The position numbers and the translations under genes are program-made. Source: a virus. Taken from it: 64,000 bases of DNA. The notes beneath the pieces are model-generated. The model did not search any database. It was not told where the DNA came from and saw only the letters and a list, made by a program, of their open reading frames with translations. Each line of letters begins with the position of its first letter. The first letter of the stretch is position 1. Shown one piece after another: positions 37,256 through 46,429 of the stretch. Where the stretch lies: UHGV virus genome UHGV-0096064. One strand, 5' to 3'.

Positions 37256-37864
37256 TTACCCCTCGAAATCCGAACGCTCAAGCAACGTATACGTAAAAGA
37301 ATTTCCATAGACCGACCGCGCTTTCTCCAATACTTCAATGAACTTCTTGTATTCCGCCGCCCCCGCGCCCACCGTGCAGCCCTCTGACCAGTTGTCCACC
37401 TGAATGGAGGTGTGGGTCTTGGACGACCAGTGAATGTTGATGCCGAACATCCCCCACTGGATGTCCCCATAGTCCATATACAAGTCCATGTTCTTGTCCC
37501 GGTATACGGCCACAGGCTTTATCTGGACGAGAGCCTTCTCCTTGCCCTTGTGCAAGCCCAGAGCATAGGCACCCCTGTATTGCCCCGGCACCATAACGGC
37601 CCGGCCATAGGATGGCGGGCTTATCATCGGCCCCTTGCCGGGGTCGGTGGTGCAGGCGAACCTGTCATCCACCCATTCACCATCCACCTTATATAACAGG
37701 CACAGCGTATCGTCAAATTTGTTGGTGACTTGGCGGCTGTTTCGGATGCCTACCACGTTGGTATTGTAGTCGCCCTCGGTAAACACGGCATACCCCTTGC
37801 GGCGCATGACCGAGAAAATATCGTCAAGGCTGTAGTCGACCATAGGATTCTCCTTTTGGAGCAC
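37256..37864 (-). CDS. putative endolysin (unrecognised fold; likely start at internal ATG ~37843 after AAGGAGA)
   Basis: 195-202-aa soluble protein immediately upstream of the holin. Called by position only. No match to lysozyme, amidase_2, M15, M23 or CHAP signatures by eye. Confidence 0.35.
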   Translation of the reverse strand: MLQKENPMVDYSLDDIFSVMRRKGYAVFTEGDYNTNVVGIRNSRQVTNKFDDTLCLLYKVDGEWVDDRFACTTDPGKGPMISPPSYGRAVMVPGQYRGAYALGLHKGKEKALVQIKPVAVYRDKNMDLYMDYGDIQWGMFGINIHWSSKTHTSIQVDNWSEGCTVGAGAAEYKKFIEVLEKARSVYGNSFTYTLLERSDFEG

Positions 37865-38148: not shown

Positions 38149-39255
38149 CTACCGCCAACTAGCTGGAATGTTTGAATAATTTGCCGCATTGGTACAATTC
38201 ATGAAAGTGAAGTCATGGGTCGGCGTGTTCGGGTACTTCGACCACAAGGCCGGGACGCTCGACGTAATGGCGGCATCATACGAGAACGAATGGGTGAAGT
38301 CCTCGACCGATTTGGTCGTATCGAACAACGATTCCGGCACCGTGATTAACCCTGTACAATTATTGAACACATAGGCGAAGTTGGTCACTTTGGTCGTGGT
38401 GCTGAACAGGCCAGACGGGACGACGATAATCTCAGGACACTCCATGAACGTGCCGTAAAAGCTGGTCGCCTCGGTGTTATTCTTGAAAAGCGTCGACGGG
38501 ACTTGAACCAGATTGCTGCACCGGGCGAACGTCCCGGCGAAAAGCTGCGCCTTGGAGTTGTTGGCGAACAGATTCTGCGGCACCTCACGCAACCCGTCGC
38601 AGCCGTCGAAGCAATAGGAAAAGTCCACGACATTGGGGTTCCCCGCGAACAGGTCAGCCGGAATGTCCGTCACCTTCACCAGCCCATGGAAGCAGTTCTG
38701 GAACCCGGTCGCCGCCTTGCAATTGGCAAACAAATTCTCCGGGATGGATGAAATCAGGGAACAGCCGTTGAAGCTGTTGGAGAACCCGGTACACTCCGTC
38801 CACAGGTCAAAGAGGCCCACCGGGATGGAGCGGAGATGCGAGCAGCCGTAGAAGTGGGAATAGGGGTCGGTCAGCACCGGGGGCAAGCTGTAGGTCTCGG
38901 CACCATCCGGCCCGATGTTGACAAGGGTCTCCCGAAAGAATTGGGTATGCGGGATAGCCGCCCGTTCAGGGTTGCTTCCCACGAACTGGACTTGGCGCAT
39001 GTCCTTTGCCCAGATGCGCATGGTGTAAACGCCGGACTGGTCATAGTCGTGGATGAGCTGGTCGGTATCGCTGCTTCCGGCCTTGACGGTCGTGACCTTG
39101 CCATCTCCCCACTCAATGAAGGTATCAATCAGGAATACCCCCCTCTCGTCTTCCAGATAACCGAGCGGCGCGCTCGTCCGCTTTCCCCCGGATGTGGTGG
39201 CCCCGGTGTCCACGACGAACACCATCGGCATCATATTGTCTCTGTATCCATACAT
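38149..39255 (-). CDS. LRR (BspA-like, LRR_5-type) repeat protein, paralog 1
   Basis: Repeats of F..C..L..I.IP..LF.NN..V..F...F. N-terminus MYGYRDN is shared with the other LRR genes. Start refined to an ATG 93 nt inside the track ORF. Confidence 0.7.
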   Translation of the reverse strand: MYGYRDNMMPMVFVVDTGATTSGGKRTSAPLGYLEDERGVFLIDTFIEWGDGKVTTVKAGSSDTDQLIHDYDQSGVYTMRIWAKDMRQVQFVGSNPERAAIPHTQFFRETLVNIGPDGAETYSLPPVLTDPYSHFYGCSHLRSIPVGLFDLWTECTGFSNSFNGCSLISSIPENLFANCKAATGFQNCFHGLVKVTDIPADLFAGNPNVVDFSYCFDGCDGLREVPQNLFANNSKAQLFAGTFARCSNLVQVPSTLFKNNTEATSFYGTFMECPEIIVVPSGLFSTTTKVTNFAYVFNNCTGLITVPESLFDTTKSVEDFTHSFSYDAAITSSVPALWSKYPNTPTHDFTFMNCTNAANYSNIPASWR

Positions 39256-39269
39256 AACGGCATATCCTA

Positions 39270-39285
39270 TGTGTGTGTGTGTGTG
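39270..39285. repeat. (TG)8 dinucleotide microsatellite in divergent promoter region
   Basis: tgtgtgtgtgtgtgtg lies 15-30 nt upstream of the LRR1 start codon (minus strand) and ~80 nt upstream of plus-strand gene 39366. Confidence 0.8.
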
Positions 39286-39365
39286 CATCCCTTGACGAAT
39301 CTGCCTGGCAGTGCATACTACCCCCAAAGAACACCCATTGTCCAACACCCAATACAGGAGCCAAT

Positions 39366-39953
39366 ATGGACAGACTCATTTGCGGCTACCCGGTCGTGCC
39401 CAAGGCGAAAACGCTCATGGTGTACTCCGACCCCGACTATACCAGCCCCTACCCCGGATATGCTCTGGAAGAAGTCATGAACTTCCGTGCGGACGACAAG
39501 CCCTATGTCGGCCCCGTCGAGTTTGAATACGACGACAGCATCACTGGCCCCGCGTCCGTGACGACCGACAGCAAAGGGAAAGCCACCGTCACCCTCACGC
39601 CGAACAGAGATGGCCTCTCCATCATCACATGCAAATTCGGGGGGGGAGAGTACGAACTCAGGTACAGTGTGCTAAACCATCAGGTGAGGTTCGGCGTCAG
39701 AACCATCTACCAGAACCGGAACACCTCCACAACGCTCTGGGTCAACAATAACTTGCAGGAATACAACGGGACGGTCTCCATCAAGTACCCGGCAGGGCTT
39801 ACCGGGCCGACCAGCGGTAAGATAAGCGCCGGGGCGATGGCAATCACCATCAACGGCTCCACGCTCGGACGCAAACAGGTCGACGTCCAGTTCGGCGTGC
39901 AGACCGCCTACTGCGCCGTGGAAGTCATTAAAGACCCGATGCCTCCTCAGTAA
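39366..39953 (+). CDS. hypothetical secreted/Ig-like protein
   Basis: 196 aa from an ATG preceded by AGGAG. Thr/Gly-rich beta composition (TVTLTPNRDGLSIITCKFGGGEYELRYSV). Confidence 0.45.
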   Translation: MDRLICGYPVVPKAKTLMVYSDPDYTSPYPGYALEEVMNFRADDKPYVGPVEFEYDDSITGPASVTTDSKGKATVTLTPNRDGLSIITCKFGGGEYELRYSVLNHQVRFGVRTIYQNRNTSTTLWVNNNLQEYNGTVSIKYPAGLTGPTSGKISAGAMAITINGSTLGRKQVDVQFGVQTAYCAVEVIKDPMPPQ

Positions 39954-40027
39954 CCCGTACACCCCCTGTCATTCCGGCAGGGGGTTTCGTTTTGAACAGG
40001 ATTGACTATCCATTACCCCCCTTAAAA

Positions 40028-40062: not shown

Positions 40063-40695
40063 ATGTACGGATATTTGGAAAACAAGGGCAGGGTCATGGG
40101 AAAACTCGCCTTCTCCTGCTCTTGGAACTTCGTCGGCGACCTCGCCAACAACCCCCGGTACAACGCGCTAGTGACGACGCCGAACCTCCTCTTCCTCTCG
40201 ACGTCCTATGAAGAGCCGGGAGCGGATGACGGGATGGAGTTCACCTCAAACGGCCTTGTCTGCACCGAGGGGTCGATTGCCACGAAGACGCAAACGGATT
40301 CAAGCTGGACAATCTCAGGACTTACGGGGTCACAAATCAACATGGGCGCGGGTTCGGCCAATGCCTTCAACATCATCAACTACCTGACCGCATGGGTCTG
40401 GAGTCCGAAGAAGGAACAGTGGTATTCTCTGGGCACACTCCCCTCGTATGCACCGGGGTCTCCGACTTCCGTCAACACCGACCAGCACCTGTCGATGGAT
40501 AGGCAAGGCGAGGTGAGCTACCTCGAAGCCAAGGAACCCTCTGACGACCACCGCATCATCCGGTGGGAAGACTTCGACTTCCACTTCCAGATGACGGCGG
40601 TCTATACGGACAAGTACGAGAGCTGCAACTTCAAGGAACCCATCGTGAACGTGCGCTTCGGCGCGCCCTACGAGTTCGACCCCGACTACTTCTAG
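40063..40695 (+). CDS. hypothetical protein (N-terminus MYGYLENK resembles the LRR paralog N-termini)
   Basis: 210-aa ORF on the opposite strand to the surrounding LRR genes. Confidence 0.5.
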   Translation: MYGYLENKGRVMGKLAFSCSWNFVGDLANNPRYNALVTTPNLLFLSTSYEEPGADDGMEFTSNGLVCTEGSIATKTQTDSSWTISGLTGSQINMGAGSANAFNIINYLTAWVWSPKKEQWYSLGTLPSYAPGSPTSVNTDQHLSMDRQGEVSYLEAKEPSDDHRIIRWEDFDFHFQMTAVYTDKYESCNFKEPIVNVRFGAPYEFDPDYF

Positions 40696-41072: not shown

Positions 41073-41264
41073 CTAAAGAGTTCTCGTGGCCCAAAGGATG
41101 AAGGCGATGCAGGCCAAAAGGCTCACCAGCACGGCGCAGGCAATCGCGAAATCATCCGAGGGCACGGCCTCCCGGTTCTGGCAGGGGCACTGGACGACGA
41201 TGGTTTGGCACACAGGCTGGCACTGGACAGGCATCGGATACTGAACGGACGGAGAAGCATTCAT
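41073..41264 (-). CDS. small membrane protein (63 aa, C-terminal TM helix)
   Basis: Cys/Pro/Gln-rich N-terminus, hydrophobic C-terminus (AIACAVLVSLLACIAFILWA). Confidence 0.35.
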   Translation of the reverse strand: MNASPSVQYPMPVQCQPVCQTIVVQCPCQNREAVPSDDFAIACAVLVSLLACIAFILWATRTL

Positions 41265-41304: not shown

Positions 41305-42916
41305 TTACTTCCAATCGTCGGGAATGTCAACGTAGTTGGAAGCACTGGTCACGTTGCGGAAACACCTGCCATGGTCGGCGACATCAGGGTATGTCGTCCA
41401 TAGCGTGGGTACGGCGCTTGTTACCTGTGAGCAACCGAGGAATGTACTTACAAAACTTTCCACTTTGCTCTTATTGTCAAACAACCCGGACGGGATGCTC
41501 TTTAGAACCTGCCAATTCGCGAACGTATTCTGGAAAGATGTGACATCCGGCTGGTTCCTGAACAGTCCGGCGGGAATCTCCACACCAGCCCACCACTCGG
41601 AAAAGGCGTTATAGAAGTTGGTCGCCTTGATATTGTTGGCAAATATGTCTTCCGGTATATGCGTCATCTTGGACAAACCGGCAAACACGCTGCCGAAGTT
41701 AGTAACCTTGGTGTTCTTAGCGAAAAGGTTCGCAGGGATTTCTCCCACGATACTCTGACATCCGCTGAACGTGGCGAAGAACACCGTGGCATCCGGCTAG
41801 TTGTCGAACAGTCCTTCGGGTATCCCCGTTATCAGGCTGCAATCGGAGAACACATAGGAGAAATCGGTAATCTTGGGATTGTTGGCGAACAATTCCGCCG
41901 GGATAGTACCCGTCACCTTGTAGCAGCTTTCAAACAGATACTCGACATCCACGAGTTCCGTCATGGCGCTCAGGAGATTGCCCGGAATGGAACCCGTGAG
42001 GTTCCTGCAATTGTCGAACAGATGGGCCACGGTGGTGACTTTCGTATGCTTGGAGAACATGGAGGGCATGGGATTGGCCCAACTCGAACAATTTTGGAAG
42101 GTCGATGCAAACGAAGTCACTTCGAGATTGGTGTCGAATAATGTCGTGGGCACCGAAACCAGCGAGGTGCAACCATAGAACGTGTTGGTGAAGTCGACGA
42201 CTCTGGTGTTCTTGGCGAAAAGTCTGGACGGGATGGTGGTGATGCCGCACGTTGAGAATGTACCGTAAAAAAGTCGTGACGTCCGGGCAATTATCAAAGA
42301 GGTTGTTGGGAATGGCCTTGATGCCGAGGCATCCATAAAAACAATCGGAAAAACTGTTGACCTTGACGGTCTTGTCGAAGAGACCGGATGGGATTTCCGT
42401 CAAACCGGAACAGGTGTGGAACGTGGAGTTGAAGGTCTCGGTGTTCGGATTGCCGTCGAAAATCCCGGCGGGGATGGCCTTCAATTTGGAGCAGCCGTAG
42501 AACGCGCCCTTGAACGCGGTCGGGACAAGTTCCGGAAAGCTGTATCCGGTAGGGTCTTTCGGCACGATGCCGACAAGCGTGTCCTGCCACAAGTCCATGT
42601 TCTTTATGGCGTTCGTAAACGAGCACTTGCCGAGGTCGTCCGCCGTCACTCCTATGACGTACTCGCCCGGCGTCGCGTAAGTATGCGTGGCGTACTCGTC
42701 GAAATAGGCATCACTATACTCGATGCCCTTGGGGATGGTCGTAATGGTGCCGTCGCCCCAATCCACTTGTACGGCAGTCTGCGTTTTATAACCAGACATC
42801 ATATTCTCGAACGCATGGATGGAGCTCATGGCTTTCGTATTGCCCGATGTCGTAGCCTCGGTATTCACGACACAATAGACGTATTCCCTATCCTTATGAT
42901 TCAAATAAGCATACAT
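41305..42916 (-). pseudogene. LRR (BspA-like) paralog 2, disrupted by in-frame TAG (41797-41799) and a +1 frameshift in an A6/T6 run (42267-42272)
   Basis: Three track ORFs (41930..42940, 41797..42336, 41305..41784) are one continuous LRR reading frame. It reads DVTTF|YGTFSTCGITTIP across the homopolymer if one T is removed, and GLFDN-TAG-PDATVFFATFSGC across the stop. Confidence 0.65.
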
Positions 42917-42938
42917 AATGATACTCTCCTTATTTTCC

Positions 42939-42948
42939 ATATATATAT
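42939..42948. repeat. (AT)5 dinucleotide repeat upstream of LRR2 start
   Basis: atatatatat lies 23-32 nt upstream of the SD-preceded ATG (42914-42916) on the minus strand. Confidence 0.6.
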
Positions 42949-42992: not shown

Positions 42993-44708
42993 CTACTTCC
43001 AGTCGTCAGGAATGTCGGCGTAGTTGGTCAACTTGCTGCAATTTCTGAAACATTTAGTTCCATTGGCGTCAGGATGAGTGACCCACAAGTCGGGAGCTGT
43101 TCCAACCAGCTTGTAACAATTCTCGAATATCTGGTGGAAATCCTTGATATTCGGATTGTTCACGAAGAGGTTCGTTGGCAGCGTCGTCAAATTGGTGCAT
43201 CCATTAAACATCATCTCCACGTCATCCAGAGCAGGATTGTTGTCAAACAACCCTTCCGGGATGGCACCCTCCAACGTGTTCAAACTATAGAAAGCGTAAG
43301 CCAAATTCTTTAACTTGGGGTTGTTGGCGAACAGCTTGGCGGGAATGGAGCCGTTGAAATCACAACCGTAGAACACGCTGTCGAGATACGTTAGCTCCGG
43401 GCAATTGGCAAAAAGATTCTCAGGAATGGGGCCGTTCAAATTGCATACCCTGAACAAACCGGAAAAAATCTCGGCAAGCGGGTTATGAGCGAACAACCCT
43501 TCCGGAATGGGGCCCACCAAACCATCACAACCATAGAAACAGCCGGAGAAGTTCGTCACTTCGGGGCAATTGGCAAAAAGGTTTTCAGGGATAGTTCCTG
43601 TGAGTCCCTCGCAGAACCGGAAGGTATCCGAAAACGTCTGCACCTTCGTGCAATTGGCAAAGAAGTTCTCAGGAATGGCACCAGTGAGCTTCTCACATTC
43701 ATAGAACGTCGCCTCGAAAGAAATAACTTCGGGGCAATTGGCGAACAAACCCGCAGGCAGGGAACCCGTCAGGCCCTTGCAACCGTAGAATGCAGAGACA
43801 AAGGTACCCGCCTTCCGGTTATTGGCGAAAAGATTCTCAGGAATGGAGCCAGTGATATTTTCGTCAAAATAGAACAATCGGTCAAAAGTGTAAGCTATGG
43901 TGTTGTGGGCAAAAAGGTTTTCAGGGATAGGCCCTGTCAATCCAGGGCAGTGGCTGAATACATAGGCGAACGATGTCACATTGGGATTGTTGGCGAAGAG
44001 ATTCTCAGGAATTTCAGTCAGTCCCTCACAACCATTGAACACGCTGTCAAACTTGTAAACTTTTGGACAATTGGCAAAAAGGTTTTCAGGGATAGACGTG
44101 ATATTTTCACAGCTATAGAATGTGGAAGCAAACGACTCGACCTTGGTGTTCTTGGTGAAAAGGTCTTCGGGAAGCGCACCCGTAAGTCCAAGACAATAAT
44201 AGAACGTATTTTCAAAAGTGGTGGCGTCTACGTTTTTGTAGAATATGCCTTTAGGAACCTGCGTCAACTTCTTGCAACTATAAAAGGCATAAGCAAGTCC
44301 GTCATGCCGGAAAACAGGCAGCGAATAGGACTCGGCACCCTTGGGGCCAATCCCGATAAGAGTTCTTCTATAGACATTCCATTCACTCTGGTTGATGTCA
44401 TAACCATGCAACTTGCAGACGCTGAAATCATCAGCGTAAACAGTCACAGTATATTCGCCGGGGGTGGCATAGTCATGCGTGGAATATTTATCCCAATACT
44501 GTGAATAAAACTCCGTACCCTTGGGAATTTCGGAAATTGAACCATCACCCCAATCAATAGTAATTGCCGTCAGGGATTGCTCATCAAGACCAAAGCTATT
44601 GAATGAATATACTGGAACCACAAACTCGGTATCACCCTCGTTGGTGGCCTCGGTATTTATAAGAAAGATAAGGCTTTCACGCGGCTCATTGTCACGATAA
44701 CCATACAT
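42993..44708 (-). CDS. LRR (BspA-like) repeat protein, paralog 3 (571 aa)
   Basis: About 18 LRR_5-type repeats (FxxCxxLTGxIPExLFANxP.V..F). Start refined to the MYGYRDNEP ATG with AAAGGAGA upstream. The track ORF extends a further 234 nt upstream. Confidence 0.7.
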   Translation of the reverse strand: MYGYRDNEPRESLIFLINTEATNEGDTEFVVPVYSFNSFGLDEQSLTAITIDWGDGSISEIPKGTEFYSQYWDKYSTHDYATPGEYTVTVYADDFSVCKLHGYDINQSEWNVYRRTLIGIGPKGAESYSLPVFRHDGLAYAFYSCKKLTQVPKGIFYKNVDATTFENTFYYCLGLTGALPEDLFTKNTKVESFASTFYSCENITSIPENLFANCPKVYKFDSVFNGCEGLTEIPENLFANNPNVTSFAYVFSHCPGLTGPIPENLFAHNTIAYTFDRLFYFDENITGSIPENLFANNRKAGTFVSAFYGCKGLTGSLPAGLFANCPEVISFEATFYECEKLTGAIPENFFANCTKVQTFSDTFRFCEGLTGTIPENLFANCPEVTNFSGCFYGCDGLVGPIPEGLFAHNPLAEIFSGLFRVCNLNGPIPENLFANCPELTYLDSVFYGCDFNGSIPAKLFANNPKLKNLAYAFYSLNTLEGAIPEGLFDNNPALDDVEMMFNGCTNLTTLPTNLFVNNPNIKDFHQIFENCYKLVGTAPDLWVTHPDANGTKCFRNCSKLTNYADIPDDWK

Positions 44709-44748: not shown

Positions 44749-45255
44749 CTGGCAAGGACTGGAGCGGGACAGGGTGTGGGCCGGGAACTGGACTGGAAAT
44801 TTCTCCGAAAAAATTTTGGAGGGGGTGAATGCTGTGGATTCAGACGGGGGTCAACGAAGCCCCCACCCCCCCTCGGACTGGACTCATCTACGAACTCGGC
44901 GTCGACGGTGTCGCGCAATGTAGGTTGGCACAGGAATTGCATAGGAAAAGTTGCTCGAAGTCGCGAGCGTTCCTATATATGGAGTGGCCGGGGCGCGCCA
45001 AGTCCTTCGTCCAAATCCCCCGCCGGGCCGTCCCTACCCTCGACGCCCTCGACGCCCTCGACGCCCTCCCGCCCGCCTCACTCCATCACCTTGATGAAGC
45101 GGCCTGACGCGCCGCCTGCTCCACGTTCGCGGCTCATCCCTACCTTATATATACCCTGACCTTTTCGCCGCAAGCTGACGCGCTTCCCGTCCTGCTATGT
45201 CATCAGCTCCATCCAGTCCCGCCAGTCCCGCCAGTCCTACCAGACAACCAAGTGC

Positions 45256-45548
45256 ACAATGTAATATCAACAAACCTATATTACATTGTTACCTACACTG
45301 TAGTATTACACTGTTACAGGTGTTATATTGTAGCATTACACTGTAACGCGCAATGTACTTTTACAATGTAACACCTGTTACAATGTAATGTTATTGTAAA
45401 TTACATTGCACACTTGCTTACATTGTTATGGCATTGTTTTTTACATTGTTGCAGGTGTTACATTGTTTTTTACAATGTAAGTTACACTGTAAGTGTAATT
45501 ACATTGCATGTAACATTGCGTCGCGCAATGTAAATTTTTACAATGTAA
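45256..45548. repeat. dense array of 11-bp palindrome TTACAnTGTAA (about 17 copies in 300 bp; about 24 in 45250-46250) - putative iterons/operator array
   Basis: For example TTACAATGTAA at about 45361, 45378, 45470, 45538, 45817; TTACATTGTAA at about 45686 and 46119; TTACACTGTAA at about 45336 and 45482. Includes a perfect 12-bp IR ACAATGTAATAT-N10-ATATTACATTGT at 45256-45289. Confidence 0.75.
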
Positions 45549-45571
45549 TTACACACAGCGCGGGTTCCTTA

Positions 45572-45589
45572 TTGATAATGGATTATCAA
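45572..45589. promoter_or_regulatory. perfect palindrome TTGATAAT-GG-ATTATCAA (operator-like)
   Basis: 8-bp arms with a 2-bp spacer, immediately followed by CTTGCAACTTTTGCAA. Confidence 0.5.
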
Positions 45590-45752
45590 CTTGCAACTTT
45601 TGCAAAAAACGAGATTCCGTAAGTTGTTGAATTTGTTGACCCGGAAAAATTTTCGCAAACCCCAAAAAGTGGTGAAAAAATTACACAGGGAGAAAGTTAC
45701 ATTGTAAAAACGGGGACGAACGGGAGGACAGGAAGAGTAGAAAAATCAAGGG

Positions 45753-45811
45753 TTTATATATATTATTTTTTAAAAAAGAATAAAATATATATATGTACTA
45801 TGTAACTTTTT
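45753..45811. other. AT-rich stretch (~59 bp, 3-4 G/C) - candidate DNA-unwinding element
   Basis: tttatatatattattttttaaaaaagaataaaatatatatatgtactatgtaactttttacc in an otherwise ~60% GC genome. Flanked by iteron-like repeats. Confidence 0.45.
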
Positions 45812-46429
45812 ACCCCCTTACAATGTAACGGCCTATCCTAGTCGGCAAAAATGCAAAATGCTTTTTTCCAAATCGCCGAACTTGATTGTGAAAATTTTCA
45901 CCACTCAGGCGGCCTCGATTTACATAAGCTGCTATGTAACTTTTTGCGGAACCCCCCAAAAAAAACTTGCAAATTTGCATACCCCCTTGAAAATCAGCGT
46001 AACACTTCAACGATTTCAACAACTTGCAACCAATTTTAAAATGCAAGTGAATTTTTTCACACTTGCAACTAGTTGGAATATATTAGGATACATCTTGCAA
46101 GTCAATTTGCAACCCCATTTTTACATTGTAAAAAGTAAAATCGTGTTACTCGTTTACATTGCGCAACACCGTCGACGCCGCCTTACACTGCATAACGCAA
46201 TGTAAAAACAATGCAACAATCCTCACTATGTAATTACATTGTTCTGCCCCTTGTCCAGTTCTGAGCGCGACACACGCGACGCCGTCCCCAAGTCCTGAGC
46301 TCCGCCCTGTCGCCTCTGCCTTCCGAATCCGGTTTCACTATCCCCAATAATCCAGTTCACCTTAACATCTTGATATTCCTACTCAATCCAGTTCAACAAA
46401 AATAATTCCGAAAATTTTCGCTACAACTC

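What the first reader, a model, noticed from the sequence alone, without database searches (positions are those of the whole stretch)
41797..42272. LRR paralog 2 is one reading frame split by an in-frame TAG and a +1 frameshift inside a 6-nt homopolymer
Across 42267-42272 (AAAAAA on the plus strand, T6 on the coding strand) the LRR repeat reads ...FDNCPDVTTF | YGTFSTCGITTIPSRLF perfectly if the run is 5 nt instead of 6. At 41797-41799 a TAG interrupts an intact repeat (GLFDN-stop-PDATVFFATFSGC) with no other change. The three track ORFs 41930..42940, 41797..42336 and 41305..41784 are therefore fragments of a single ~537-codon gene. There are three possible explanations. First, recent pseudogenisation. 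Second, a sequencing or assembly error at the homopolymer. Third, slipped-strand phase variation at the T-tract. TAG recoding is unlikely, since all other large genes are uninterrupted in the standard code.
Basis: seen in the sequence. Interest (0 to 1): 0.6.

Follow-up and report, generated by a model that had tools for sequence, protein, structure and literature searches.

The report
Twice-broken phage LRR gene (recent pseudogene)
One of three leucine-rich-repeat surface-protein genes in an uncultured ~64-kb gut phage has been knocked out by a real extra T in a T-run plus a real CAG-to-TAG stop. Related strains have broken or deleted the same gene in other ways, so it is an ordinary, recently dead, dispensable gene and not a recoding signal or an assembly error.

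Summary
On the minus strand, 42916->41305 is one 536-codon gene with an N-terminal Ig-like domain, about thirteen 27-residue BspA/DUF285-type LRR units and a conserved C-terminal cap. It is interrupted by a T6 run (42267-42272, one T too many) and by an in-frame TAG (41797-41799).

Both lesions are real. They are identical in at least five independent metagenome assemblies.

Related strains supply the ancestral states. L007/L008 carry T5 at this run, which is exactly the predicted in-frame allele. L004 carries CAG (Gln) where the window has TAG, inside a single ORF collinear with window fragments B and C.

No intact orthologue was found anywhere. Sister lineages disrupted the same gene independently:
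- L007/8: T5->T6 at another run 80 nt upstream, plus a 990-bp deletion.
- L005/6: a 1.5-kb deletion.
- L004: an N-terminal rearrangement.

dN/dS is about 0.1 in two of the three compared segments, so inactivation is recent.

TAG recoding is excluded, because TAG terminates paralogs 1 and 3 and many other genes and the window has no tRNA. Programmed +1 frameshifting is not conserved. Reversible phase variation is unlikely for this gene.

Poly-G/C and (CA)n tracts nearby in the same module are truly hypervariable.

Best explanation: a recent two-hit pseudogene. Low interest.

The parts
41305..42916 (-). Whole disrupted gene (LRR paralog 2): 536 codons plus the TAA stop once one T is removed. It has an N-terminal PKD/Ig-like domain, about thirteen 27-28-residue BspA/DUF285-type LRR units, and a C-terminal cap ...VPTLW...CFRNVTSASNYVDIPDDWK.
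   Evidence: Pfam PKD and LRR_5 hits are sub-threshold. Phmmer E about 1e-99 to 1e-123 to proteins carrying PF03382/PF13306; one of them is named a BspA family LRR surface protein.
42924..42931 (-). Shine-Dalgarno-like AAGGAGAG about 7-8 nt upstream of the likely start codon ATG 42916-42914.
   Evidence: Read from the sequence. The same upstream sequence is conserved in L005, L007 and L008.
42269..42916 (-). Fragment A in its native frame (216 codons, MYAY...DVTTF).
   Evidence: The product as called by gene finders is P0001 (328 aa): these 216 residues plus an out-of-frame tail.
42267..42272 (-). T6 run (A6 on the plus strand): a +1 insertion relative to the in-frame T5 allele. It creates the codons UUU UUA in the old frame.
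   Evidence: T6 in the window, L001, L002, L003 and L029; T5 in L007 and L008.
42349..42353 (-). Second T run, about 80 nt upstream. It is T5 here (in frame) and T6 in L007/L008, where it causes a different frameshift (product P0122, 204 aa).
41930..42268 (-). Out-of-frame tail translated after the T6 run (LRYILNVRHHHH... to TGA at 41930-41932); junk sequence, not a gene.
41800..42267 (-). Fragment B in its native frame (156 codons, YGTFSTCG...GIPEGLFDN).
41797..41799 (-). In-frame TAG (plus-strand CTA). The homologous codon in L004 is CAG (Gln), so this is a single C->T transition; plus-strand base 41799 is A here and G in L004.
   Evidence: TAG is present in the window, L001-L003, L026 and L029.
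41305..41796 (-). Fragment C (163 codons plus TAA): the last LRR units and the conserved C-terminal cap. It is about 98% identical in protein to L004.
   Evidence: dN/dS is about 0.11 against L004.
42993..44708 (-). LRR paralog 1 (571 aa from MYGYRDN), intact here. Included as context for the paralog array.
   Evidence: PHROG 9915, E 1e-90. AF2 model with pLDDT 91.8: N-terminal beta-sandwich plus LRR solenoid. It ends ...IPDDWK followed by TAG.
38149..39255 (-). LRR paralog 3 (368 aa), intact here. Included as context.
   Evidence: It ends ...IPASWR followed by TAG.
41073..41264 (-). Small downstream ORF (63 aa) with a C-terminal hydrophobic helix. Both large deletions of paralog 2 in sister lineages end inside it, in frame.

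Best explanation
This is a recent, two-hit pseudogene of a dispensable accessory LRR (BspA/DUF285-type) surface-protein gene in an uncultured ~64-kb, 58% GC gut phage.

Shown:
- Replication slippage added one T to a T5 run (ACT TTT TAC -> ACT TTT TTA C). This shifts the frame after codon 216 and ends translation at a TGA after 112 out-of-frame codons.
- Separately, a C->T transition turned a CAG (Gln) codon in a later LRR unit into TAG.
- Both lesions are fixed in a phage lineage found nearly clonally in several human gut metagenomes.

Inferred:
- The only product is an N-terminal domain plus about 3.3 LRR units with a junk tail. It lacks most of the solenoid and the conserved C-terminal cap, so it is presumably non-functional.
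- The phage does not need this paralog, possibly because paralogs 1 and 3 remain, or because the function is accessory.
- The whole LRR module is turning over fast, because sister lineages inactivated or deleted the same gene independently.
For: 1. The lesions are real. T6 and TAG are identical in the window, L001 (ENA ERZ28661800), L002 (ERZ28640557), L003 (Logan ERR911970) and L029 (JGI 3300029552). TAG is also present in L026 (ERZ27306873).

2. Ancestral states are seen in relatives. L007/L008 (97.6% identical) carry T5 at this run. L004 carries CAG at the TAG site and one ORF collinear across fragments B and C.

3. The same gene carries independent, mostly irreversible lesions in sister lineages:
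- L007/8: T6 at another run plus a 990-bp deletion (window 42195-41205).
- L005/6: a 1.5-kb deletion (window 42662-41159).
- L004: the N-terminal domain is replaced or truncated with a frame break.

4. No intact orthologue was found. The word-indexed search of 5.8e9 proteins and the exhaustive phmmer of the native 216-residue N-terminus against 1.84e9 representatives returned only the frameshifted product P0001 above 51% identity.

5. Purifying selection acted until recently:
- Window vs L007, N-terminal 187 codons: 11 synonymous, 4 nonsynonymous (omega about 0.10).
- Window vs L004, after the TAG: 7 synonymous, 3 nonsynonymous (omega about 0.11).

6. No recoding machinery exists. The window has no tRNA. 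TAG terminates paralogs 1 and 3 at the family's conserved C-terminus, and also the 2516-aa, 1029-aa and 702-aa genes among others.

7. Paralog 1 folds as one continuous LRR solenoid with N- and C-terminal modules. A truncation inside the solenoid is therefore expected to be destructive.
Against: - Only consensus contigs were available, so minority T5 or CAG sub-populations cannot be excluded.
- The T insertion happens to create UUU UUA. UUA is used only 1.0 per 1000 codons, so this resembles a +1 slippery site, and some frame restoration by the ribosome cannot be ruled out.
- Fragment C still shows omega of about 0.1, but this rests on only 10 substitutions.
- The segment between MFSK... and the TAG shows 10 nonsynonymous and 1 synonymous differences from L004. 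That could reflect relaxed or diversifying selection, or a recombination boundary.
- Other simple repeats in the same module are truly hypervariable, which keeps a contingency-locus reading alive for the module as a whole.
- Several window-type samples come from related cohorts and are nearly clonal, so they are independent as sequencing and assembly events but not as evolutionary events.
Confidence: 0.8

Rival explanations
1. Contingency locus, or phase variation. The T run switches T5<->T6 by slipped-strand mispairing at a useful rate. This turns the LRR protein on and off in the phage population as a bet-hedging device.
For: - Two T runs 80 nt apart each show a T5/T6 difference between lineages.
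- A 2025 preprint treats phage homopolymers of 6 or more bases as putative contingency loci, with indel frequencies around 1e-4 to 1e-3 (PMC12633550).
- The same module has truly hypervariable repeats: poly-G in paralog 3 (G5/G6/G8/G9/G10), (CA)3-10 upstream of paralog 3, G8/G9 in the 39366-39953 gene, and C6/7/9/11 upstream of the 210-aa gene. These are the only differences between otherwise identical contigs L005/L006 and L007/L008.
Against: - The TAG in the same gene cannot be reverted by slippage, so this lineage stays OFF whatever the run length.
- T6 is invariant in all five window-type assemblies that cover it, while (CA)n and a G5/G6 run do vary among these same near-identical genomes.
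- No ON (T5/T5 plus CAG) genome was found.
- Sister lineages carry large deletions, which indicate loss and not switching.
- Runs of 5-6 T are short for classical phase variation (own knowledge).
Confidence: 0.1
2. Programmed recoding. The ribosome shifts +1 at U_UUU_UUA, with P-site Phe-tRNA re-pairing on UUU while the rare UUA codon waits. The TAG is then read through or decoded as Gln, giving a full-length protein.
For: - UUU UUA is a perfect +1 re-pairing site followed by a codon used at 1.0 per 1000.
- The TAG corresponds to CAG (Gln) in L004, the amino acid used in known TAG-recoded phages (own knowledge).
Against: - The site is not conserved. L007/8 have T5 in frame and L004 is in frame with different sequence. 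The UUU UUA motif is an automatic by-product of inserting a T into ACT TTT TAC.
- No Shine-Dalgarno-like stimulator is visible upstream (sequence).
- TAG is a working terminator for many genes here, including the two sister paralogs at their conserved C-termini.
- The window has no suppressor tRNA and no tRNA at all, and there are no other in-frame TAGs in the large genes.
Confidence: 0.03
3. Sequencing or assembly artefact. The true genome has T5 and a sense codon.
For: Homopolymer indels are a classic error class, and the window is a metagenomic assembly.
Against: - T6 and TAG are identical in contigs assembled independently from different samples and by different pipelines (ENA x3, Logan, JGI).
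- A different sample pair shows T5 here, so assemblers resolve this run both ways.
- A substitution error giving TAG would not recur across samples.
Confidence: 0.02
4. Silent donor cassette. The broken copy is kept as a sequence reservoir for gene conversion into the expressed LRR paralogs, as in antigenic-variation systems.
For: - The array is mosaic between strains. The C-terminal half is about 96-98% identical between the window and L004, while the N-terminal half is only about 40-50% identical.
- Paralog 1 is replaced by a different 753-aa allele in L005/6.
Against: - There are no long near-identical tracts between paralog 2 and paralogs 1 or 3 in the window. The best matches are 60-88% over 73 nt or less.
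- The copy is freely deleted in sister lineages.
- It has its own RBS and start codon, and shows recent purifying selection typical of an expressed gene.
Confidence: 0.03

Closest known systems
Ordinary bacterial or phage pseudogene made by homopolymer slippage plus a nonsense mutation (classical frameshift hot spots at short A/T runs)
   Same: A single-base insertion in a short homopolymer and a C->T nonsense change interrupt an otherwise intact ORF. The ancestral alleles (T5, CAG) are extant in relatives. The gene is deleted outright in other relatives.
   Different: Nothing essential. It sits in a three-paralog LRR array of an uncultured phage, and the same gene has been lost by at least three or four independent routes, which is a striking rate of loss.
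BspA-type / DUF285 (PF13306 / PF03382) leucine-rich-repeat surface proteins of Bacteroidota and other bacteria; phage family PHROG 9915
   Same: - 26-28-residue repeats of the form ..F..F..C..L..IP..LF.N...
- A preceding ..DWGDG...HTY..G.Y.. Ig/PKD-like domain and the C-terminal ...CF..C....NY..IP..WK cap.
- Phmmer E about 1e-99 to 1e-123 to proteins carrying these Pfam domains.
- Paralog 1 models as an LRR solenoid.
   Different: - The window proteins themselves score below the Pfam gathering cut-offs.
- They are short (370-570 aa) compared with the 800-7000-aa bacterial proteins.
- They are phage-encoded, have no signal peptide or lipoprotein leader visible in the sequence, and begin with a phage-specific MYGYRDN...VVNTEATT N-terminus.
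- Their function in the virion or the infected cell is unknown.
Hypermutable homopolymer tracts (contingency loci) in phage genes: Campylobacter phage poly-G tracts and T2/T4 SSRs (PMC12633550; PMC10877375 and the work it cites)
   Same: A homopolymer inside the ORF of a putative surface or adhesin protein whose length differs between related genomes and sets the reading frame. Neighbouring poly-G/C and (CA)n tracts in the module behave as truly hypervariable.
   Different: - For this gene the run is only 5-6 T.
- It is invariant among near-identical genomes.
- It is accompanied by an irreversible nonsense codon.
- No ON allele is known.
Programmed +1 ribosomal frameshifting (prfB CUU UGA C; yeast Ty1 CUU AGG C)
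   Same: A P-site codon that can re-pair perfectly in the +1 frame (UUU), followed by a slowly decoded A-site codon (UUA, 1.0 per 1000).
   Different: The site is not conserved in orthologues. There is no upstream Shine-Dalgarno stimulator. The motif is a by-product of the insertion, and a TAG 156 codons further on would still truncate the product.
TAG->Gln stop-codon reassignment in gut phages (genetic code 15; some crAss-like and Lak phages; own knowledge)
   Same: The in-frame TAG aligns with a Gln (CAG) codon of a homologue.
   Different: This is a single occurrence. TAG is used as a terminator throughout this genome, and there is no suppressor tRNA.

Membership tests
Pseudogene (disrupted copy of a formerly functional gene) | The reading frame is interrupted relative to intact homologues, with collinear homology on both sides of each lesion. 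| tested here: met
   one collinear HSP (629 bits) to the L004 ORF across both lesions, and a regular 27-residue repeat ladder.
Pseudogene (disrupted copy of a formerly functional gene) | The lesions are real and not sequencing or assembly errors. | tested here: met
   T6 and TAG are identical in at least five independent assemblies. The alternative T5 allele was assembled in two other samples.
Pseudogene (disrupted copy of a formerly functional gene) | No mechanism compensates for the lesions (recoding, suppressor tRNA, conserved frameshift site). | tested here: met
   (no tRNA; TAG is a normal terminator). (frameshift site not conserved). Low-level spontaneous frameshifting or readthrough could not be tested.
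Pseudogene (disrupted copy of a formerly functional gene) | No full-length protein or function is produced. | not testable with these tools
   This needs proteomics or genetics on the phage, and no isolate is known.
BspA-type LRR / DUF285 (Pfam PF13306, PF03382) | A profile match at or above the Pfam gathering score. | tested here: not met
   LRR_5 scores 16.4-25.1 bits against a cut-off of 27.7. DUF285 scores 22.0 against 25. PKD scores 18-19.7 against 23.5.
BspA-type LRR / DUF285 (Pfam PF13306, PF03382) | Significant sequence homology to recognised members. | tested here: met
   E 1.8e-123 to P0002 (PF03382, PF18911) and E 1.1e-98 to P0016 ('BspA family leucine-rich repeat surface protein', Bacteroides sp.); 661 representatives at E<=1e-30.
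BspA-type LRR / DUF285 (Pfam PF13306, PF03382) | Tandem units of about 23-28 residues forming an LRR solenoid. | tested here: met
   (27-28-residue ladder in the reconstruction); the paralog 1 model has pLDDT 91.8, and the top PDB matches are LRR ectodomains (5iyv E 7.9e-8).
Programmed +1 ribosomal frameshift site | A slippery P-site codon that re-pairs in the +1 frame, followed by a rare or stop A-site codon. | tested here: met
   ACU UUU UUA, with UUA used at 1.0 per 1000 codons. This follows trivially from the T insertion.
Programmed +1 ribosomal frameshift site | Orthologues conserve the shift site and the two-frame arrangement. | tested here: not met
   L007/8 have T5 (a single frame) and L004 is in frame.
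Programmed +1 ribosomal frameshift site | Measured frameshifting efficiency, or a trans-frame protein. | not testable with these tools
   This needs a reporter assay or proteomics.
Contingency locus / phase-variable gene | A simple-sequence repeat inside the ORF or promoter whose unit number sets expression. | tested here: met
   a T6 run in the ORF, which qualifies under the >=6-base criterion of PMC12633550.
Contingency locus / phase-variable gene | Repeat length varies among otherwise near-identical genomes (hypermutability). | tested here: not met
   T6 in all five window-type assemblies that cover it. T5/T6 differences are seen only between lineages about 2.4% diverged. By contrast poly-G/C and (CA)n tracts nearby do vary among near-identical contigs.
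Contingency locus / phase-variable gene | Reversible ON/OFF switching, with an ON state present in the population. | tested here: not met
   The TAG at 41797-41799 keeps the gene OFF at any run length. No ON allele was found in any database searched. Minority variants within samples could not be tested.
Stop-codon reassignment (TAG->Gln) | TAG is avoided as a terminator and occurs in frame in many genes. | tested here: not met
   18 of 58 crude gene calls end in TAG. These include the 2516-aa, 1029-aa and 702-aa genes and LRR paralogs 1 and 3. The large genes are uninterrupted.
Stop-codon reassignment (TAG->Gln) | A phage-encoded suppressor tRNA. | tested here: not met
   ARAGORN finds no tRNA in the 64,000-base window, out of a genome of about 64.3 kb.

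The most novel reading that the evidence does not exclude
The broken gene is one visible state of a simple-repeat-driven contingency module. In this reading, an uncultured gut phage diversifies expression of three LRR adhesin-like genes and two neighbouring small genes through hypermutable tracts:
- T5/6 at two sites in paralog 2.
- Poly-G of 5-10 in paralog 3.
- (CA)3-10 placed 15 nt upstream of the paralog 3 start codon.
- G8/9 in the 39366-39953 gene.
- C6-11 upstream of the 210-aa gene.

The population would therefore always contain virions with different combinations of surface proteins. The window lineage would then simply have locked paralog 2 OFF with a later nonsense mutation.
Probability: 0.15. 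Interest if true: 0.55.

Novelty: new member of a known kind. Interest (0 to 1): 0.25.

Why it matters
For annotation, 41305-42940 should be recorded as one pseudogene, not as three hypothetical proteins. Nothing here signals an alternative genetic code or programmed recoding.

Biologically, it is a clear small example of how fast accessory repeat-protein genes of gut phages are lost. Five related haplotypes carry at least three or four independent knock-outs of the same gene.

The more useful lead is next door. Poly-G/C and (CA)n tracts in and upstream of the neighbouring genes are the only differences between otherwise identical phage contigs. That would be natural-population evidence for the recently proposed phage contingency loci.

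Tried and rejected
- Megablast of 38-45 kb against GenBank phages found no match. The phage is uncultured, and its terminase is only about 30% identical to those of podoviruses.
- Exact DNA patterns around the T run and the TAG site found nothing in IMG/VR.
- The search for related loci with the neighbouring 210-aa gene in IMG/VR found nothing, because L004 lacks that gene.
- The search for related loci with the 202-aa gene 37259-37864 found only the L004 contig again, plus relatives at 50% identity or less.
- The metagenome-contig scan found only the L008 contig again, plus distant LRR proteins.
- The genome-contig scan found nothing.
- A second word-indexed protein search with the C-terminal 251 residues returned no hit above 48% identity. 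It did not even return the identical 159-aa fragment that is on record. A negative from that tool is therefore weak. The exhaustive phmmer search was run to compensate.
Paralog 1 was modelled instead.
- The apparent three-way split of paralog 1 in L007, and a gap in L002 near 38490, are scaffold N-runs and not mutations. They are rejected as evidence.
- The end of L008 is a Nextera adapter.
- The promoter and terminator scan around the gene gave nothing informative.
- NCBIfam gave only faint, sub-threshold hits.
- The silent-cassette idea was rejected because the paralogs share no long identical tracts.
Full report
**Observation**

The minus strand of 41305-42940 was read and translated in all three frames.
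- Frame 0 runs from ATG 42940 or 42916 through ...NLFDNCPDVTTF and then degenerates into LRYILNVRHHHH... until a TGA at 41930-41932.
- Frame +1 picks up at exactly that point with YGTFSTCGITTIPSRLFAKN... and continues as clean LRR repeats to a TAG at 41797-41799 (GIPEGLFDN*PDATVFFATFSGC).
- The same frame then continues to ...NYVDIPDDWK and TAA at 41305.
- The switch point is ACG ACT TTT TTA CGG, which is T6 on the coding strand at 42267-42272.
- Deleting one T gives a 536-codon ORF with one internal TAG.
- Cutting the reconstruction at the conserved IP..LF motif gives a ladder of 27-28-residue units that stays in register across both lesions.
- The likely start is ATG 42916 (MYAY..., compare MYGY... 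in the paralogs), preceded by AAGGAG.

**The lesions are real**

- The frame-0 product (P0001, 328 aa, including its out-of-frame tail) is on record from six contigs.
- The loci fetched (L001 ENA ERZ28661800, L002 ERZ28640557, L003 Logan ERR911970) are 99.7-100% identical to the window over 13 kb, and 100% identical across 41305-42940.
- Further look-ups added L029 (JGI 3300029552; T6 and TAG) and L026 (ERZ27306873; TAG only, because the contig starts just short of the run).
- Two other samples assemble T5 at the same run (below), so assemblers are not biased to one length.
- Sequencing or assembly error is therefore excluded.

**Ancestral states and collinearity**

- L007 and L008 (ENA ERZ28625036 and ERZ1027043) are 97.6% identical to the window here.
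- L004 (IMGVR_UViG_3300045988_120807) has a 500-codon ORF that aligns with reconstruction residues 92-536 in one HSP of 629 bits. Its two gaps are each exactly 27 residues, and it has CAG (Gln) where the window has TAG.
- The TAG is thus a single C->T transition, and the T6 is a +1 slippage from T5.

**The same gene is broken differently in every other lineage**

- L007/8 have T6 at a second run 80 nt upstream (window 42349-42353 is T5). This gives a 204-aa product (P0122). They also have a 990-bp deletion (window 42195-41205) at GTCGTC microhomology.
- If that upstream run is corrected, the L007 frame reads straight through the T5 run and the deletion, into the C-terminal hydrophobic helix of the small ORF 41073-41264.
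- L005/6 (Logan SRR22388768/9) have a 1.5-kb deletion (42662-41159). It fuses residues 1-82 in frame to the same small ORF (P0123, 110 aa).
- L004 has a different N-terminal domain plus about 2.5 repeats. It then changes frame into the tail of another N-terminal domain, which looks like a fusion of two paralogs.
- No intact orthologue was found in IMG/VR, the JGI metagenomes, GTDB genomes or the 5.8e9-protein index.
- An exhaustive phmmer search of 1.84e9 representatives with the native 216-residue N-terminus found only P0001 above 51% identity.

**Timing**

Nei-Gojobori counts:

| Comparison | Synonymous | Nonsynonymous | omega |
|---|---|---|---|
| Window vs L007, N-terminal 187 codons | 11 | 4 | about 0.10 |
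| Window vs L004, after the TAG | 7 | 3 | about 0.11 |
| Window vs L004, from MFSK... to the TAG | 1 | 10 | about 3 |

- Most divergence therefore accumulated under purifying selection, so the inactivations are recent.
- The third segment may reflect relaxation or a recombination boundary.
- All counts are small.

**Recoding alternatives**

- ARAGORN finds no tRNA.
- A crude GC3-based gene set ends in TAA 23 times, TAG 18 times and TGA 17 times. TAG terminates the 2516-aa, 1029-aa and 702-aa genes. It also terminates LRR paralogs 1 and 3 directly after the family's conserved ...IP..W[KR] end. TAG is therefore a working stop.
- The insertion creates UUU UUA, and UUA is rare at 1.0 per 1000 codons. 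This formally resembles a +1 slippery site.
- However, that motif is the automatic result of adding a T to ACT TTT TAC. It is absent from L007/8 and L004, no Shine-Dalgarno-like stimulator precedes it, and the TAG would still truncate the product.

**Phase variation**

By the permissive criterion of a 2025 preprint (SSR of 6 or more bases; PMC12633550), the run qualifies as a putative contingency locus, and two T runs differ between lineages. Against this:
- T6 is invariant in all window-type assemblies, whereas other repeats vary among these same near-identical genomes.
- The TAG and the deletions are irreversible.
- No ON allele exists.

I put functional phase variation of this gene at about 0.1.

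**What the gene is**

- The three paralogs are 42993-44708, 41305-42916 and 38149-39255.
- They share an MYGYRDN...VVNTEATT N-terminus, a ..WGDG...HTY..G.Y.. Ig/PKD-like domain, 27-residue repeats, and a ...CF..C....NY..IP..WK cap.
- Pfam LRR_5, DUF285 and PKD hits are all below their gathering scores.
- Homology to proteins carrying those domains is very strong: E 1e-123, including a 'BspA family leucine-rich repeat surface protein'.
- Paralog 1 matches PHROG 9915 at 1e-90.
- An AlphaFold model of paralog 1 (pLDDT 91.8) is a beta-sandwich followed by one continuous LRR solenoid. Its top PDB matches are LRR ectodomains.
- Similar LRR segments occur in Klebsiella prophage proteins annotated as tail proteins, so a virion-surface or adhesin role is plausible but untested.
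- The genome is a ~64.3-kb, ~58% GC phage with terminase, portal and internal-virion-protein genes and no close cultured relative.

**Verdict**

- This is a real, recently formed, two-hit pseudogene in a fast-turning-over accessory LRR gene array.
- The kind is well known, so this is only a new instance.
- The most interesting by-product is the set of truly hypervariable poly-G/C and (CA)n tracts in the same module. These are listed under things noticed in passing.

**Limits**

- Only consensus contigs were available.
- Several carriers come from related cohorts and are near-clonal.
- No expression data exist.

Noticed in passing
window 39138-39143 (minus-strand coding, codons ~37-40 of LRR paralog 3, 38149-39255): A poly-G tract inside the paralog 3 ORF is length-variable. 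The window type reads GAGAGGGGGG (G6, interrupted by an A). L004 has G5 and is 3 nt shorter (in frame). L005/6 have G8 (in frame). L007 has G9 and L008 has G10; both are frameshifted, with the ORF stopping at 43 aa in L007. This tract is the only difference between L007 and L008 over 5.3 kb. It looks like a true hypermutable ON/OFF tract. Caveat: L008 has only ~3x coverage.
   Followed up: partly
window 39270-39285 (intergenic, 15 nt upstream of the paralog 3 ATG at 39255; divergent promoter region shared with the + strand gene 39366-39953): The copy number of a (CA)n/(TG)n microsatellite differs between strains. It is 8 in the window, L001, L003, L006 and L029; 5 in L002, L007, L008, L026 and L032; 3 in L004; and 10 in L005. 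It differs even between L005 and L006, which are otherwise identical over 12.3 kb, and within the near-clonal window type. An adjacent G5/G6 run near 39324 also varies.
   Followed up: partly
window 39639-39646 (G8 inside the + strand 195-aa gene 39366-39953; faint Big_1 hit): This is one of the two longest G/C homopolymers in the window. It is G9 in L005/L006, where the gene is called as two pieces of 94 and 109 aa.
   Followed up: partly
window 40016-40021 (C6, ~45 nt upstream of the ATG of the 210-aa gene 40063-40695): This poly-C tract is C6 in the window type, C7 in L007/8, C9 in L005 and C11 in L006. Together with the (CA)n tract it is the only difference between L005 and L006 over 12.3 kb.
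   Followed up: partly
window 43397 (LRR paralog 1, codon 438): Contig L002 (ERZ28640557), otherwise window-type, has GAG->TAG here. This splits paralog 1 into 437 and 127 aa, a second LRR paralog caught being inactivated.
   Followed up: yes
window 41073-41264 (63-aa ORF with a C-terminal hydrophobic helix, minus strand): Both independent large deletions of paralog 2 (L005/6 and L007/8) end inside this ORF only ~45 nt apart. Both are in frame with it and preserve its C-terminal helix. This could be chance (1 in 3 each) or selection to keep that segment expressed.
   Followed up: partly
L005/L006 3660-5921, compared with window 42993-44708: Paralog 1 is a different and longer allele (753 aa) in L005/6. 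Its LRR region is too diverged from the window's to align at nucleotide level. L004 lacks the 210-aa gene 40063-40695 altogether. L007/8 carry an in-frame 162-bp (two-unit) deletion in paralog 3 (window ~38742-38581). The whole 38-45 kb module is mosaic between strains.
   Followed up: partly
window ~45030-46250 (GC ~45%, no convincing ORF): This AT-rich non-coding region lies between the leftward LRR/lysis block and the rightward genes. It holds perfect 9-nt tandem repeats (CCCTCGACG x3.6 at 45037-45068; CCAGTCCCG x2.8 at 45213-45237). It also holds a dense field of TACAATGTA/TACATTGTA-type palindromic motifs: 7 exact TACAWTGTA against 0.1 expected, all in 45362-46130, with many more near-matches visible. 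These are probably regulator or replication-initiator binding sites.
   Followed up: partly
L008 5280-5317: The end of contig ERZ1027043 NODE_1069 is Nextera adapter sequence (CTGTCTCTTATACACATCT...), which is contamination in the public assembly.
   Followed up: no
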